Source: Promethearchaeota archaeon (GTDB lineage: Archaea > Asgardarchaeota > Lokiarchaeia > Sigyniarchaeales > SOKP01). From it: a stretch of 61,999 bases of DNA. The notes beneath the pieces are model-generated. The model was not told where the DNA came from, ran no database searches, and was given only the letters and a program-made list of their open reading frames with translations. The stretch is taken from NCBI GenBank assembly GCA_019058365.1, contig JAHPZE010000027.1:1-61999 (forward strand), in the 5' to 3' direction. Shown here piece by piece: positions 1,848-9,528 of the stretch. The position numbers and the translations under genes are program-made. Each line of letters opens with the position of its first letter. Positions within the stretch are counted from its first letter, which is position 1.

Positions 1848-4805
1848 ATGAGTTATACATTTTCAAGGACTAAAATGATTGAAAAAATAAAATTTGGACT
1901 TTTGAGCCCAAATGAGATTCGGAAAATGAGTGCAGCAAGAATAATTACTGCTGACACTTATGACGAGGATGGACTTCCGATACCAAGTGGTCTTATGGAC
2001 CAAAGATTAGGAACTATCGAACCTGGACAACGATGTCAGACTTGTGGTAATCTCGTGAGCAATTGTATGGGGCATTTCGGACATTGTAAGAAGCATTTAG
2101 AGTCTTACGTCTAAATTGAACTGGCCCGTCCGGTAATTCACGTCGGTTACGCAAAAAAAGTCTTAAAAGTATTAAGAAGTATTTGTCCAGAATGTAGCAA
2201 GTTAATGCTCACTGAAGATGAAAAAGAGAAATTCAGACAAGAGCAATTAACACATAGAAAGATCTTTTTTGAGGGCGATGAGGATGCTGCTAAAATTGTT
2301 TTTAAAAGAGCAAGGAAGGCAAAAGTTTGCCCTCATTGTGGAGCTATTAAAAAAAAAATTATTATTGAAAAACCAACTACCTTTTATGAAGAAGAAGAAG
2401 GCAAAGGCTCACGGAGAATAACGCCTATTGAGATTTTAGAACGTCTAAAGAAAATTGGTGATGTGGATCTAAGGATCCTTGGTATTTCTCCTGAAAATGC
2501 AAGACTTGAATGGGTAGTATTTACAGTATTACCAATCCCTCCTGTATGTGCAAGGCCATCAATTACTCTAGATAGTGGTATTCGATCTGAAGATGATTTA
2601 ACACATAAGCTGGTTGATGTCATCCGAATTAACCAAAGATTGCGAGAGAATATTGATGCAGGAGCGCCTCATTTAATAGTTGAAGATCTATGGGAATTAT
2701 TACAATACCATATTACAACTTATTTTGATAATCAAGTTTCTGGTATACCTCCTGCTAGGCATCGTTCTGGTAGAGCACTTAGAACATTAACTCAGAGGTT
2801 AAAGGGTAAGGAGGGTAGATTTAGAAGTAATCTAAGTGGTAAAAGAGTTGATTTTTCTGCCCGCAGTGTTATATCACCTAATCCATATATTAGCATTAAT
2901 GATGTAGGTGTTCCAATAGAAATTGCAAAAATTTTGACAATCCCTACGAATGTTAATGATTGGAATATTGAAGAGATGAAACAAATGGTCCTAAATGGAC
3001 CTTTTAGACATCCGGGTGCGAATTACATCATACGTAATGATCGAAGAAGGATTGACTTACGATACGTAAAAAACCGAAAAATTATCGCTGATATGCTCGC
3101 ACCGGGTTTTACAATTGAACGACATTTAAATGATGGAGATTTAGTATTGTTCAATCGACAACCTTCGCTTCATAGAATGAGTATAATGGCTCATGAAGTA
3201 AAAATAATGACAGGAAGAACTTTTCGCCTAAATTTAACTGTATGCCCACCTTATAATGCGGACTTCGATGGAGATGAAATGAATTTACATGTACCCCAAA
3301 GTGAAGAAGCACGCACGGAAGCAGAATTACTTCTTAAAGTTCAAAACCATATACTTTCTCCAAGATTTGGTGGACCAATATTAGGCGGAATTCAAGATTT
3401 TATATCAAGTGTCTTTCAATTTACCAGTAAAGAATCTTTATACGATAAGAAGGACACATTAAAATTATTATATTTTGGAGATGTATATAAAAATAATCCT
3501 GATTTTAGTTTAGATCAACTTACTCCTATAATTACTGATCCAGAGCCAAAATACTCGGGAAAAGAAATTTTTAGTACATTATTTCCAGATGATCTAAATA
3601 TTAAAGTAAAATCTAAATTTTGTAAAAAATGCGAAATCTGTGAAGAGGAAAATTGTCCTTATGATGCGTATGTCGTGATTAAAAATGGTAAATTAATAAC
3701 TGGAACTGTTGATGAGAATTCTTTTGGAGCTATGCAATCAAATAGTATCTTGCAGCGCATAATTAAAGATCATGGTAATGCACTTGGAAGGCAATTTTTA
3801 GATAGTGCTACCAAAATGCTCTTATACGTTATTCGACAGAATGGAATGACAATGGGATTGGATGAAGTGTATGTGCATGGACATGCATATGAAGAAATCG
3901 AAAAAATATTAAAAGATGCAAACATCGAGTCTGAGAAATTAATTAATGCTTTCTATGAAAATGATACAACAATTCTTAGAAGAGCACCCGGACGTTCAAT
4001 GAGAGAAACATTGGAATTAAGAATCAGACAAGTATTAGCAGAAGCTAGAAAACAAGCAGAAGAAACTGCTGCAAATTTCATTGGAGATGAAGCTCATTCT
4101 GTTATTATGACTAAATCTGGAGCTCGGGGTAATATATTAAATTTAGGACAAATGTCTGCGGTTGTTGGGCAACAAGCAATTAGAGGAGAAAGGATAAATC
4201 GAGGATATAGTATGAGAACATTGCCTCATTTTAAAATTAATGATCTTTCACCTAAATCCAGAGGATTTGTATCCTCTTCTTATAGAAATGGATTAAAACC
4301 AGTGGAATTTTTCTTCCACGCAATGGGAGGAAGAGAGGGATTAGTAGACACAGCAGTTAGAACTTCTACCTCGGGATATATGCAACGTAGGTTAGTAAAT
4401 GCATTACAAGATATGGTTGTTGAAAATGATGGCACCGTCAGAAATTCGGATAAAAATATTATCCAATTCCGCTTTGGTGATGATGGTATAGATCCTATGC
4501 ATACAGATCATGGTGCTGCTGTAAATTTAGATGTTTTATTATTAAAAGCCAAAGCCTTGGATTCTAAAGAAGTACGTGAAGAAATTAAAAAAAACTTACC
4601 AAAAAAATTATCCGTATCGAAGGAAAAAGGAGTATCTAAAAAAAAACCTACTAAAACACCTACAAATAAACCGCAACCAAAGAAAAAACCAGATGATAAT
4701 GACTCAATGATACAACAATTCGAAGAAGAGACTGGTAAAAAAGCAATTTGGCGAGGGAAAGAAACCAAAGCTTATTTAGATTGGAAAGAAGAAAAATTAG
4801 GATAA
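1848..4805 (+). CDS. rpo1N: DNA-directed RNA polymerase subunit Rpo1N (A'), two exons 1848-2084 and 2115-4805 (975 aa after removing the 30-nt insert)
   Basis: FGLLSP, CQTCG..CMGHFGH|[21 protein letters not shown] catalytic motif, [13 protein letters not shown]; ORFs 1848-2114 and 2205-4805 are in the same frame. Confidence 0.97.
2085..2114 (+). other. Putative 30-nt BHB-type (archaeal tRNA-splicing-type) intron in rpo1N mRNA
   Basis: TGTAAGAAGCATTTAGAGTCTTACGTCTAA; central helix GGAC(2079-82)/GTCT(2109-12); bulges ATT(2083-85) and AAA(2113-15); intron stem GTAAGA/TCTTAC; removal gives GGA CAT|ATT GAA (G-H-I-E). Confidence 0.88.
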
Positions 4806-4836
4806 AAAAATTGTTGTATAAAGAAGGGAATTAATA

Positions 4837-6033
4837 ATGGCAAAAATAGATTCAGAATATTTAGAAGAAAAGTTAAAAGAACTAGAAGGGGATGGTATTC
4901 CCGAAGATTTAATAAATAAAATTAGAAAAAAACTTAACGAAGAGGAATTAGAAAAGGAACAACTTGAATATTTATTAAATAAAATTTATATTAATTTTAC
5001 TAATGCTCTTGTAGAAACTTCAGAACCAGTAGGTACCGTAGCAGCTCAGTCTATTGGTGAACCTGGAACCCAAATGACATTGAGAACATTCCATTATGCA
5101 GGAGTAGAGGAATTCTCTGTAACCCAAGGATTACCCAGGCTCATTGAAATAGTTGATGCTAGACGTTTCCCTAGTACCCCACAAATGACCATCTATCTTG
5201 AAAAACCCTATAATGAAAGCGAGGATAAAGCAATTAATGTTCATAATCGTATTGAACAAATACGTATAGAACAAATAACTCATGATGTCGATCTAGATTT
5301 TGTGAATTGGAATATTGTTATTAATTTAATACCAGAAATTTGTGAGAAAAAAGGAATTGAAATAAACGATATTCCTGAAATTTTAAAGCGTTATAAAAAG
5401 AAAGGAACAATAAAACGTGAAGGAACTTCTATAATTATAGATCCGGGAATAGAAGATTTACAGAGTTTACAAAAATTAAGAGAAAAGATACTTAAAAAGG
5501 TTGTAAAAGGGATTAGAGGAGTTAAGAGAGGACTATTGACTCTTTCAGATGATGGTAAAGAATGGATAATTAAAACTGAAGGTACTAACATGCAAAGTGT
5601 AATACAAATTGAAGGAGTAGATGTAACCAGAACAGTTTCAAACCATATTCACGAAGTAGAAAAATTATATGGCGTAGAAGCAGCACGTCAAATGATAATA
5701 TTGGAAGCTCAAAAAGTCTTGGAACAACAAGGATTAGATGTAGATTTAAGGCATCTCTTGATTTTATCAGATCTAATGTGTTATTCTGGATCAATTCAAT
5801 CTATTGGAAGACATGGAATATCAGGTTCAAAATCGAGTGTATTTGCTCGTGCAGCATTTGAAGTCACAGTCAATCAATTACTCGATGCTGGGCTTTACGG
5901 AGAGGAAGAGCGTTTACTTGGAATACCTGAAAATGTAATTGTAGGCCAAATTAGCCCGATAGGCTCAGGGCGTGTAGCTGTAATGTTCGATCTTGACGCT
6001 AATTTAGAAATATTAAAAAAGAAGGAAAAATAA
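4837..6033 (+). CDS. rpo1C: DNA-directed RNA polymerase subunit Rpo1C (A'')
   Basis: [39 protein letters not shown] motifs; follows rpo1N. Confidence 0.97.
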
Positions 6034-6154
6034 TATCATCAAGTGAAAACTTTTAATTAGGGTATAATAACATAAATATTCCTAAAAAAAAAAATTAAAA
6101 ATTAAAAAAGCATTATTCTTATTACTTATTATATAGATACTTATTGAAATTATC

Positions 6155-6529
6155 ATGGCAAAGGGAAAGAGTAAAACCGTCACTGAAAAAGTCGATCTAA
6201 GTAGGAAAAAAACTAAGGAGTTTGATGTTGATACTAATATCAAAGTTGCTTATAAAACAGGTAAAATAGTCTATGGTAAAAATCAAGTTCTGAAGAACAT
6301 AAAAAGGGCAAATTCTTTTAAAATGCTTATCGTGAGTAATAATTGCCCTGCAGAATTGATTAAACAATTGAATTATTATAATTCTCTTTTAAAAGATCAA
6401 ATCTTTATCTATAAATATAAGGGCTCAAGTTGGGACTTAGGTCTAGCTTGTGCTAAGCCATACATGATTTCTATTATAGGTATAATCGATTTTGGAGATT
6501 CCGCTTTGATCTCTTTAAAAACTAAATGA
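6155..6529 (+). CDS. rpl30e: 50S ribosomal protein L30e
   Basis: KTGKIVYG, NNCP, YKGSSWDLGLACAKPY; conserved position after rpo1C. Confidence 0.93.
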   Translation: MAKGKSKTVTEKVDLSRKKTKEFDVDTNIKVAYKTGKIVYGKNQVLKNIKRANSFKMLIVSNNCPAELIKQLNYYNSLLKDQIFIYKYKGSSWDLGLACAKPYMISIIGIIDFGDSALISLKTK

Positions 6530-6557
6530 TCTTAATAACGCAAAACAAGTTTTTTCT

Positions 6558-7034
6558 ATGTTAAAAAAGAATATTAAAATTGATCGGGAAGCAATGGAGC
6601 TTATTTCGCTATTTAATAACATATCTGGAGCAATTATAAAAGATTGTCTGATTTTTAAATCGCCTGAGAATAGATCCGAAATTATTATTTTTTTAGTAAA
6701 AGAAGAGGATGTAGGAAAAGCTATTGGAAAAGCGGGTGAGCATGTTAAGGATTTAAAATCAAAACTCCAAAAAAAAATAGATGTTATTGCCTTCTCTGAA
6801 AATCTTAACCAATTCATCCAAAACATATTACAAACTACAAAGAATTCTATAATGGTTCAAAATATCGAAATTAAAGAAAGTAGAAATCTAAAAAAGACCG
6901 TTATTATTACTGTAAGACCTCAAGATCGCGGAAAAGCAATTGGCAAAGAAGGCTCAATGATAAGAAAGATAAAAGAACTGGTGCTAAGGTACTTTGAAGT
7001 CGATAATGTAATTATTAATACGAAAAATATCTGA
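6558..7034 (+). CDS. nusA: Archaeal NusA-like KH-domain transcription factor
   Basis: Two KH motifs GKAIGKAG / GKAIGKEG; conserved position after L30e. Confidence 0.93.
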   Translation: MLKKNIKIDREAMELISLFNNISGAIIKDCLIFKSPENRSEIIIFLVKEEDVGKAIGKAGEHVKDLKSKLQKKIDVIAFSENLNQFIQNILQTTKNSIMVQNIEIKESRNLKKTVIITVRPQDRGKAIGKEGSMIRKIKELVLRYFEVDNVIINTKNI

Positions 7035-7100
7035 TTGTTATTACCTAAAAATTATCCTTAATAATTATTATTAATTTAATCACAAAAATTACTATTTATA

Positions 7101-8357
7101 GTGATTCATCTGTCAAAATTAACCCTTTATGATGAACAAGCTGCTAATAATCATGTTAAATCGCTAGATTTTACACGGCACGCAGCAACTGATGGTGAAA
7201 CAAAAACTATAACCTATATCCAAAAAGAACTAGAAAAAGTGAATCTTGATGCTAAAGTTGAGTCTTTTGAGTGGACTACTTCATTATATAAAATAAGGAA
7301 ATTGTTGTTTTTATGGATATTCATTTTCATTTTAAGTAGTGAGATATTATTATTGTATCCAAGTAATACATGGCTAATTCTTCCTCTTGATGGTCTCTTT
7401 TTATTAGGATTACTAGTAGTAGTCAAATATGCTTTTGATCATTCAAAGCTAATATTCATAGGTAAGAAAAGAGAATCAAAAAATGTTATAGCAACCATTC
7501 ATGCGAAAGATTTATATCCGAAAAGACCTGTTATAGTTTTTTCAGCTCATCATGATTCAGTTTCGTCTAATTTTACACACAAAATAACAAAATTATTACT
7601 TCTTTCAGCAGTATTTTTACTCCTCTCATATCTATTAATTAACTTAATCCTCGCAATTTGGTCAACAATAGCATTATTTACAGCAATTCAAATTGAAATT
7701 ATTTATTTATGGATAAGAAATATTTCCCTAATTATCGGGAGCATTCTACTTTTAGAAATATTTGTTACCTTTTTCATGAAAACAACCAATGAATCTATTG
7801 GTTCAGTTGACAATGCGTCAGGAGTTGCAATTCTATTAGAATTAGCGAAGTTAATCCAAAAAAAACCACTTGAAAAGACTGATGTACTTTTTTTATGGTG
7901 TGGAGCGGAGGAAATGGGCCTATGGGGGTCTAAACAATACTGTTCTAAACATTTCGAAGAATTAGATACTGATTATGACTTGAATAAATCATATAACATT
8001 AATATAGACATGGTGGGTACTTACATAGGTTTAATTGATGAAACTGGATTATTTAGAAAAAAAAAAATAAATAATAATCTTAATGATATCTTAAAGGCAT
8101 CAGATATACAACATAAAATCCCCTCTGAGAAATCAAAATTATCATTAGGTTCTGGAAGTGATCATTTAGTTTTTCGTGCATTTACAAAAAAAACAGAGAA
8201 AAACGGTTTCCAAGTAACTTGCTTTTTATCAAAAAAAGACGCAAAATATATACATTCTAACAAGGATATTCCTGAATTGTGCTCTGCTGAAAATCTAAAT
8301 GGATGCATAGATATTTGTTATAATGCTATAAAAAGCCTTGATCTGAGAGTAGAATAG
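7101..8357 (+). CDS. Membrane-embedded M28 family metallopeptidase
   Basis: SAHHDS, GSVDNASG, GAEEMGLWGS, NIDMVG, SDH, YIHS motifs plus TM segments; true start possibly CTG at 7110. Confidence 0.85.
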   Translation: MIHLSKLTLYDEQAANNHVKSLDFTRHAATDGETKTITYIQKELEKVNLDAKVESFEWTTSLYKIRKLLFLWIFIFILSSEILLLYPSNTWLILPLDGLFLLGLLVVVKYAFDHSKLIFIGKKRESKNVIATIHAKDLYPKRPVIVFSAHHDSVSSNFTHKITKLLLLSAVFLLLSYLLINLILAIWSTIALFTAIQIEIIYLWIRNISLIIGSILLLEIFVTFFMKTTNESIGSVDNASGVAILLELAKLIQKKPLEKTDVLFLWCGAEEMGLWGSKQYCSKHFEELDTDYDLNKSYNINIDMVGTYIGLIDETGLFRKKKINNNLNDILKASDIQHKIPSEKSKLSLGSGSDHLVFRAFTKKTEKNGFQVTCFLSKKDAKYIHSNKDIPELCSAENLNGCIDICYNAIKSLDLRVE

Positions 8358-8455
8358 GATATTCAAAAGAAGCATTTTTTCATTATATACATAAATTTTA
8401 AGTTTAAAGAAACATTTTTTCTATTACTAAAGTTCTATTAATTAATAATTATTAG

Positions 8456-8896
8456 GTGTTATCAATAGCTCCCAAAGGGTTATATGCCGCGAGAAAACTT
8501 AAAACTAATCGAAAAAAGTTTAAATGGTCCAAAACAAAATATAAAAGAAGAATACTCAAATTAAAACAAAAAGTTGACCCATTAGAAGGAAGTTGTCAAG
8601 CTCTTGGTATCGTTCTTCAAAAAGTAGGTCGAGAAAGTAAACAACCAAACTCAGCAATAAGAAAGTGCGTACGTATCCAATTGAAAAAGAATGGAAAAGG
8701 TGTGACTGCCTTCCTTCCGGGGGATGGGGCGCTTAACTTCATAGAAGAGCATGATAGAGTAATAGTTGAAGGAATTGGAGGCGCTAAAGGACGATCTATC
8801 GGAGATCTCCCTGGAGTACGTTATAGGGTCGTTAAAGTTAATGGTGTAAGTTTAGAAGCTCTTTTATCAGGAAAGAAAGAAAAGCCGTTGCGGTAA
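8456..8896 (+). CDS. rps12: 30S ribosomal protein S12 (uS12)
   Basis: [29 protein letters not shown]; start may be ATA at 8465. Confidence 0.97.
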
Positions 8897-8910
8897 AGAG
8901 GTTAAAAGTT

Positions 8911-9528
8911 ATGAGTAAGGTAAAGAGAGAAGTAAAACTATTTAATAATTGGTCTTATTCAGACATACATATAGGGGATAGAACTCTTGAAAACTATATT
9001 AATTTGAAACCAATTATCGTACCTCATTCTGCTGGCAGACATGAGCATAAAAGATTCTGGAAAACCTCAAAAGTCTCAATTATTGAACGTTTTTCCAATA
9101 GATTACTCTCTCCTGGTTTCATCGGCAGTAAGATCAGAGGTCATAAGAGTTCCTATCATTCTGGCAAGAAAGCTAAACTTCTGAAGAGTATAAAAAATGC
9201 TTTTGTTTTAATAGAATTGACCACCGAGCAAAATCCAATCCAAGTTTTAGTAGATGCGGTTTGTAATTCTGCACCTCGTGAAGAAACTACAAAGATTGCG
9301 ATGGGAGGTATTTCATACGCGTCAGCAGTAGATATAGCACCACAACGTCGAGTCGACTTGGCTATTAAGTATCTCGTTCAAGCAATTGGTGCCCGGTCAC
9401 ATGCAAATGAAAAGATGTTTGAAGAAAATGTAGCTCAAGAACTAATACTCGCAGCAAGTAACAATCAAGAATCTAGAGCTGTAAAACGCAAGGATGAAAT
9501 CGAAAGAATTGCGGTCTCAGCAAGATAA
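8911..9528 (+). CDS. rps7: 30S ribosomal protein S7 (uS7)
   Basis: PHSAGRH, NPIQVLV, APREE, VDIAPQRRVD, ERIAVSAR. Confidence 0.97.
   Translation: MSKVKREVKLFNNWSYSDIHIGDRTLENYINLKPIIVPHSAGRHEHKRFWKTSKVSIIERFSNRLLSPGFIGSKIRGHKSSYHSGKKAKLLKSIKNAFVLIELTTEQNPIQVLVDAVCNSAPREETTKIAMGGISYASAVDIAPQRRVDLAIKYLVQAIGARSHANEKMFEENVAQELILAASNNQESRAVKRKDEIERIAVSAR

What the first reader, a model, noticed from the sequence alone, without database searches (positions are those of the whole stretch)
2070..2130. 30-nt bulge-helix-bulge intron interrupting RNA polymerase Rpo1N (A') mRNA
Seen: the conserved clamp zinc-site sequence C-x-G-H-F-G-H-I-E-L is broken by a 30-nt in-frame insert (2085-2114) that ends in TAA, which would truncate an essential subunit at 88 aa. 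The RNA folds as 5'-GGAC[AUU]GUAAGA-loop-UCUUAC GUCU[AAA]-3'. That gives a 4-bp central helix (GGAC/GUCU), a 3-nt bulge closed by a perfect 6-bp intron stem, and a second bulge on an imperfect exon stem (GGGGCAUUUC/GAACUGGCCC, relaxed BHL-like). Established: archaeal splicing endonuclease EndA cuts after the 2nd nt of each bulge and RtcB ligates; pre-mRNA BHB introns are known mainly from crenarchaeal cbf5. Applying that rule gives CAU|AUU, which restores [16 protein letters not shown] exactly. Inference: a tRNA-type intron in a core protein-coding gene of an Asgard archaeon, which ORF callers would annotate as a split gene or pseudogene.
Basis: partly seen in the sequence, partly recalled or inferred. 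Interest (0 to 1): 0.95.

Follow-up and report, generated by a model that had tools for sequence, protein, structure and literature searches.

The report
tRNA-type intron inside Asgard RNA polymerase
The only gene for a core RNA polymerase subunit in this Asgard archaeon is interrupted by a 30-base hairpin of the kind archaea cut out of tRNAs, so its messenger RNA very probably has to be spliced; in the papers I could search this is confirmed for only one other archaeal protein gene (cbf5), and no spliced transcript has been seen here.

Summary
Confirmed. A 30-nt insert (2085-2114, ending in an in-frame TAA) splits the only rpo1N (A') copy of a Promethearchaeota (Lokiarchaeia) genome. Of 30 possible 30-nt excisions, only the one predicted by the bulge-helix-bulge (BHB) cutting rule restores GHFGH|IELARP. 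An independent read assembly is identical, so it is not an assembly error. Eleven of about 128 family genomes carry an insert at this exact site (30-40 nt). Their sequences diverge but the fold is kept: 9 of 21 pairs show compensatory changes, reached by 0/500 shuffles. Silent exon codons are also constrained to keep the pairing. Two other rpo1N sites are interrupted in relatives, two genomes having a 4-nt micro-exon. This genome holds at least six more such inserts in other genes and encodes a two-subunit EndA with the broad-specificity loop, plus RtcB. Carriers are scattered on the gene tree, which suggests repeated exchange, gain or loss. Splicing is inferred: no transcript was found. This scan has noted the same site and class on other DNA; in searchable print only cbf5 is confirmed.

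The parts
1848..2084 (+). rpo1N (RNA polymerase A') exon 1, 79 codons, ending in the clamp motif C-x-G-H-F-G-H
   Evidence: identical in protein to intron-less relative L002; best solved match Rpo1N 2waq_A
2069..2078 (+). 5' strand of the outer exon stem (2069-2071 pair with 2125-2127; 2076-2078 with 2118-2120)
   Evidence: silent codon bias in carriers
2079..2082 (+). exon strand of the 4-bp central helix (GGAC), pairs with intron 2109-2112
   Evidence: 100% of cells paired in 10 inserts; A-U, G-U and G-C at one position
2083..2085 (+). 3-nt bulge; predicted 5' cut between 2084 and 2085
2085..2114 (+). 30-nt intron: 1 nt + 9-bp stem (2086-2094 with 2100-2108) + 5-nt loop + helix strand 2109-2112 + AA; in-frame TAA at 2112-2114
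2113..2117 (+). 3' bulge/loop (5 nt unpaired); predicted 3' cut between 2114 and 2115
2115..4805 (+). rpo1N exon 2, 896 codons plus stop; ORF callers start it late at ATG 2205

Best explanation
It is a tRNA-type (BHB-family) pre-mRNA intron. The rpo1N transcript folds at the insert into a 4-bp exon-intron helix, with a 3-nt bulge closed by the intron hairpin on one side and a relaxed 5-nt loop closed by an exon-exon stem on the other. The cell's two-subunit splicing endonuclease EndA cuts after the second nucleotide of each bulge and RtcB joins the exons, giving His79-Ile80 and a 975-aa Rpo1N. Unspliced RNA stops at 88 aa. Shown: insert, unique register, conserved and covarying fold, exon codon constraint, single gene copy, enzymes encoded. 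Inferred: cleavage, ligation and full-length protein. More weakly inferred: the intron is a tolerated passenger that moves among relatives by homologous exchange of the 5' end of the gene, not an ancient regulatory switch.
For: Unique restoring register equals the EndA rule. All 19 distinct inserts tested at two sites give a 4/4 central helix in the restoring register, and 0 of 192 shifted registers pass. Covariation in 10 inserts: 93.8% of cells paired, 9 pairs with double changes, 0/500 shuffles, slid controls 31-49%; RNAalifold finds the same fold. Conserved G-U pairs point to RNA of the sense strand. Exon codons that build the stems: GGR 14/14 vs 31/77, Ala GCC 13/14 vs 13/77, Arg CGN 14/14 vs 36/77; all three together go with the intron in about 9 of 11 independent pairs and almost never the other way (median p 0.004), with no such bias at distant codons. 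Both exons are under purifying selection. Inserts of 31, 40, 50, 65 and 85 nt shift the frame. Single copy in a 100%-complete genome. EndA alpha is closest to Aeropyrum EndA and keeps the K44-P-R46 loop that allows relaxed motifs to be cut (PMC3241643); second EndA paralog and RtcB present.
Against: No spliced transcript or peptide was found. The 3' site is not a canonical 3-nt bulge. The single-sequence fold is only z -2.1. Covariation shuffles ignore relatedness, although carriers are scattered on the tree. The spread-by-exchange step rests on divergence patterns that cannot tell gain from loss.
Confidence: 0.93

Rival explanations
1. Translational recoding: the ribosome reads through the TAA or hops over the hairpin, with no RNA cutting.
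For: In this genome the insert is in frame with a single stop, and 30 nt is the commonest length. Hairpins accompany known bypass sites (own knowledge).
Against: Relatives carry up to three stops or frame-shifting lengths at the same site. No matching take-off and landing codon (His codon before, TAA at the end). Read-through would put 10 unrelated residues in the clamp core. Recoding does not explain why three sites obey the cut-after-second-bulge-base rule.
Confidence: 0.02
2. Split gene: an 80-90 aa N-terminal piece and a separately started C-terminal piece assemble into the polymerase.
For: Archaeal A is already split into A' and A''; gene callers do report two genes here.
Against: No start codon is conserved at the beginning of exon 2 (Leu82 is CTG, CTC, TTA, CTT, TTG or CTA). 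The first ATG would drop about 30 conserved residues including further zinc ligands. Tails after His79 vary freely. It leaves the exon-intron helix unexplained.
Confidence: 0.02
3. A DNA-level element (miniature hairpin insertion) that is excised from the chromosome in part of the population, or a pseudogene or assembly artefact.
For: The insert is a near-palindrome and comes and goes between genomes only 2-4% apart.
Against: No target duplication. G-U pairs are kept. An identical Logan contig, 0 mismatches over 2637 nt, and many independent assemblies of other carriers. Single copy of an essential gene with pN far below pS.
Confidence: 0.03

Closest known systems
cbf5 pre-mRNA intron of Desulfurococcales and Sulfolobales (Watanabe 2002; Yoshinari 2006; Yokobori 2009, PMC2738675)
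   Same: Short (16-44 nt there, 30-40 nt at this site); relaxed BHB at the borders; cut between second and third bulge base; sits in a highly conserved motif; host has a hetero-oligomeric EndA.
   Different: Different gene and phylum. cbf5 is one site in one gene, gained once and occasionally lost; here rpo1N has three sites, the genome has at least seven interrupted genes, and presence flips between near relatives. cbf5 splicing is shown by cDNA; this is not.
Non-canonical archaeal tRNA introns (Thermoproteales; Asgard tRNA introns, bioRxiv 10.64898/2026.10.13.758758)
   Same: Same motif, size and hairpin form; repeated gains; this genome's own tRNA genes carry many inserts of about 28-34 nt.
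   Different: The host is a coding sequence, so the exon stems must be built from silent codon positions. That preprint does not mention mRNA or cbf5. No sequence match between this intron and any other place in the genome.
BHB intron in the 5' UTR of Haloferax HVO_1309 (PMC7714728)
   Same: mRNA substrate of the splicing endonuclease.
   Different: Outside the reading frame, so not needed to make the protein; that paper names cbf5 as the only other mRNA case.

Membership tests
EndA-spliced BHB intron (cbf5/tRNA type) | 4-bp central helix between exon and intron end | tested here: met
   4/4 pairs in all 19 inserts tested; 100% paired, one covarying position
EndA-spliced BHB intron (cbf5/tRNA type) | 3-nt bulge at the 5' site closed by an intron helix | tested here: met
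   8 of 9 stem pairs with double changes
EndA-spliced BHB intron (cbf5/tRNA type) | Cuts after the second base of each bulge restore the host sequence exactly | tested here: met
   unique register; also at two other rpo1N sites
EndA-spliced BHB intron (cbf5/tRNA type) | Host encodes EndA able to cut relaxed motifs, and a ligase | tested here: met
   two PF01974 paralogs, one with catalytic Tyr/His/Lys and the K44-type loop, one lacking the His; RtcB. Activity itself untested.
EndA-spliced BHB intron (cbf5/tRNA type) | Excision from RNA shown (cDNA, reads, or in vitro cleavage) | not testable with these tools
   searches for an intron-less copy with carrier-type exons found none identifiable as RNA
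Canonical hBHBh' motif (strict form) | Second bulge of exactly 3 nt closed directly by an exon helix | tested here: not met
   5 unpaired bases (2113-2117) before the exon stem in the consensus fold; relaxed form, as reported for most cbf5 introns
Group I or II intron, intein, or other Rfam family | Catalytic RNA core or intein reading frame | tested here: not met
   30 nt with an in-frame stop; no Rfam match at E up to 1

The most novel reading that the evidence does not exclude
Lokiarchaeia run a routine, genome-wide layer of mRNA splicing by the tRNA endonuclease: a population of stereotyped 30-nt hairpin introns that repeatedly invades conserved motifs of essential genes (RNA polymerase included), spreads between species, and can stack into multi-intron genes with 4-nt micro-exons that are spliced in order. 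This would be protein-gene intron proliferation in the prokaryotic sisters of eukaryotes, independent of group II introns and the spliceosome.
Probability: 0.65. Interest if true: 0.9.

Novelty: new variant of a known kind. Interest (0 to 1): 0.8.

Why it matters
In the papers I could search, archaeal splicing inside a reading frame is confirmed only for cbf5, and I found none on Asgard protein-gene introns (subscription papers are largely missing from that library). An intron in the single gene for a core RNA polymerase subunit must be removed efficiently, which makes it the cleanest test case: one RT-PCR or one read-mapping decides it. If true, transcription in these cells depends on the tRNA-splicing machinery; Asgard annotations and marker-gene sets contain falsely split or truncated core genes (public databases hold many 70-91 aa truncated A' pieces); and intron gain and loss in protein genes can be watched among close relatives in the lineage nearest to eukaryotes.

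Tried and rejected
De novo BHB scan of the genome with codon scoring: 140,950 raw hits, dominated by AT-rich noise; it missed this intron under strict filters and works only with homology. Search for RNA evidence: a pattern allowing 0-30 nt at the junction found 3 JGI/GenBank contigs, all with the intron; fragment clusters and look-ups gave DNA assemblies or intron-less alleles with non-carrier codons; exon-2 product not on record. Source of the intron among this genome's tRNA introns or elsewhere: no match above chance. Long co-conversion tract shared by carriers: not seen outside the paired bases. Split matches in other Asgard families (4 checked) were open frames or contig breaks, not stop-bearing inserts; only the best 150 of the phylum matches were listed, so absence outside the family is not shown. 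The Lokiarchaeum RNA polymerase debate paper does not mention introns. A quick motif search did not reproduce the radA, elf1, mutase or hgdC candidates noted by the scan; this is a weak search, not a refutation. Sigma-70 promoter scan uninformative. About 28% of the comparison genome G044 could not be fetched, so the genome census is a lower bound.

Full report
OBSERVATION. The window is contig C52 of a 4.74-Mb genome scored 100% complete; its relatives are Promethearchaeota, that is Lokiarchaeia-type Asgard archaea. The rpo1N frame opens at ATG 1848 and stops at a TAA at 2112-2114 after 88 codons; the next called ORF starts at 2205. Removing 2085-2114 gives a continuous 975-aa protein. Of 30 alternative 30-nt excisions only this one restores GHFGHIELARP, the motif seen in intron-less relatives and in solved Rpo1N. 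There is one rpo1N locus in the genome. A Logan contig from run SRR14802574 matches the window with no mismatch over 2637 nt, insert included, so this is not an artefact of one assembler.

ANATOMY. The predicted RNA has a 4-bp helix between exon 2079-2082 and intron 2109-2112, a 3-nt bulge (2083-2085) closed by the intron stem, and five unpaired bases (2113-2117) closed by an exon-exon stem. By the rule for the archaeal splicing endonuclease, cutting between the second and third base of each bulge (PMC2738675), the cuts fall at 2084/2085 and 2114/2115, the unique restoring register. On its own the fold is modest (z -2.1).

RELATIVES. In the family, 128 of 135 genomes have the gene. Most, including the nearest (99% protein identity), are intact at this site. 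Nine genomes in five genera have a single insert here, and two more (G039, G072) have it plus a second insert four bases downstream. Metagenome contigs add more, including Loki's Castle assemblies. Lengths at this site are 30, 31 and 40 nt. A second site, inside the Glu81 codon, carries 35-85 nt inserts (G066, G085, G021, G039, G072), and a third, inside the Leu43 codon, carries 30-nt inserts (G048, G049; 3 of 4 helix pairs). At the first two sites all 19 inserts tested have a 4/4 central helix in the register that restores the protein, and none of 192 shifted registers passes. In G039 and G072 the second helix is 3/4 before and 4/4 after the first intron is removed, which suggests ordered splicing around a 4-nt exon (inference).

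COVARIATION. Ten 30-nt inserts align without gaps. The structure is paired in 93.8% of cells; 8 of 9 stem pairs and one central-helix pair change on both sides; no shuffle of 500 reaches this, and slid controls give 31-49%. RNAalifold finds the same fold unprompted. The central helix varies among A-U, G-U and G-C at an exon third-codon position, and a G-U pair is kept in 9 of 10, which fits sense-strand RNA rather than DNA. The exons are also constrained: codons that build the stems are GGR 14/14 against 31/77 in intact genes, GCC 13/14 against 13/77 and CGN 14/14 against 36/77. The three together follow the intron in about 9 of 11 phylogenetically independent pairs (median sign-test p 0.004); distant codons show no bias. 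Both exons are under purifying selection: pN 0.001-0.003 against pS about 0.2 in exon 2 of close pairs, and exon 1 is identical in protein to an intact relative.

MACHINERY. The genome encodes two EndA paralogs and RtcB. One paralog keeps the catalytic Tyr, His and Lys and is closest to Aeropyrum pernix EndA among solved structures, with the loop lysine K44 aligned; that loop and lysine give the ability to cut relaxed bulge-helix-loop substrates (PMC3241643). The other lacks the His and is the likely structural subunit (inference). That RtcB is the archaeal splicing ligase is my own knowledge. Many tRNA genes of this genome carry inserts of similar size.

NOT ALONE. Comparing about 1650 ORFs of a relative (G044, 2.4 Mb) with this genome without using the motif, the stop-bearing or frame-shifting inserts with flanks at least 90% identical were five, all with this geometry: rpo1N, and genes whose motifs I read as AMP phosphorylase, class I aldolase, acyl-CoA dehydrogenase and carbamoyl-phosphate synthase large subunit. 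Two more (acetoacetyl-CoA synthetase-like, mevalonate kinase-like) were verified by motif. G044 has four different ones, all 30 nt. Nearly all share the plan 1 + 9-bp stem + 5-nt loop + 4 + 2 bases and sit in conserved motifs. In-frame inserts without stops did not show the geometry consistently.

HISTORY. On a tree of the downstream part of the gene the 14 carriers of this site need 13 changes, and carriers sit beside intact alleles only 2-4% away. In this genus exon 1 differs between close relatives 2-8 times more than the distal gene, also between intact pairs, and the upstream neighbour gene is swapped out of step with the tree. My inference is that the 5' end of rpo1N serves as a recombination anchor for a variable upstream region, and that alleles with and without the intron are exchanged along with it. 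This cannot tell gain from loss and does not say how the intron first arose.

RIVALS. Read-through or hopping fails on frame-shifting and multi-stop inserts and on the lack of matching codons. A split protein fails on the lack of a conserved restart. A pseudogene, artefact or DNA-excised element fails on selection, independent assemblies and G-U pairing. None explains why the cut rule predicts the register at three sites.

WHAT IS KNOWN. The closest case is the crenarchaeal cbf5 intron (PMC2738675), which says no other gene's splicing was confirmed although some were predicted. A 2020 study names cbf5 as the only earlier mRNA case and adds a 5' UTR intron (PMC7714728). An October 2026 preprint on Asgard tRNA introns does not treat mRNA. 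My searches found no paper on Asgard protein-gene introns; the library lacks most subscription papers. This scan has recorded the same rpo1N site on another genome and the class on many; those notes are unchecked AI notes and are not counted as evidence.

VERDICT. A real, selected, tRNA-type intron in an essential gene, probability about 0.93; mechanism of a known kind, but new in host gene, lineage, number per genome and turnover. Splicing remains to be shown on RNA.

Noticed in passing
G000 C9:32935-32964(+), C9:554-585(-), C46:48704-48733(+), C24:5759-5788(+), C49:53861-53890(+), C36:26607-26637(-): Six further 30-32 nt BHB-type inserts in conserved motifs of genes read as AMP phosphorylase, class I aldolase, acyl-CoA dehydrogenase, carB, acetoacetyl-CoA synthetase and mevalonate kinase.
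   Followed up: partly
G044 C1 near 1621977(-), 2599625(+), 1410049(-), 1505072(+): Four other 30-nt BHB-type inserts in genes intact in G000; motifs suggest NAD synthetase, CinA-like, undecaprenyl diphosphate synthase-like and one unknown protein.
   Followed up: partly
L033:3094-3194(-), L034:3107-3207(-): Two introns separated by a 4-nt exon in rpo1N of G039 and G072; the second helix becomes perfect only after the first intron is removed.
   Followed up: partly
L031:469-589, L037:475-595, L269-L278: 85-nt inserts at the Glu81 site hold three hairpins and may be introns nested in introns.
   Followed up: no
window 1848-2084 against L002-L024, L205, L264: Exon 1 is 2-8 times more diverged at silent sites than the distal gene among close relatives, and the upstream gene differs out of step with the tree: likely a recombination anchor.
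   Followed up: partly
L288-L294 (protein P0146, KKN42838.1): The Loki's Castle metagenome (PRJNA259156) carries the same-site intron; its exon 1 is deposited as an 80-aa hypothetical protein. Whether it belongs to the published Lokiarchaeum bin was not checked.
   Followed up: partly
window 1848-9528: By their sequences the cluster reads rpo1N-rpo1C-rpl30e-nusA-(peptidase-like gene)-rps12-rps7, with no rpoB upstream and a divergent 502-aa membrane-anchored protein gene at 64-1572. Names from my own reading, not tested.
   Followed up: no
G000 tRNA genes, e.g. C16:76131-76243, C39:246289-246392, C33:43906-44010: Many tRNA genes carry 28-34 nt hairpin inserts at non-canonical positions and are mis-called by ARAGORN.
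   Followed up: partly
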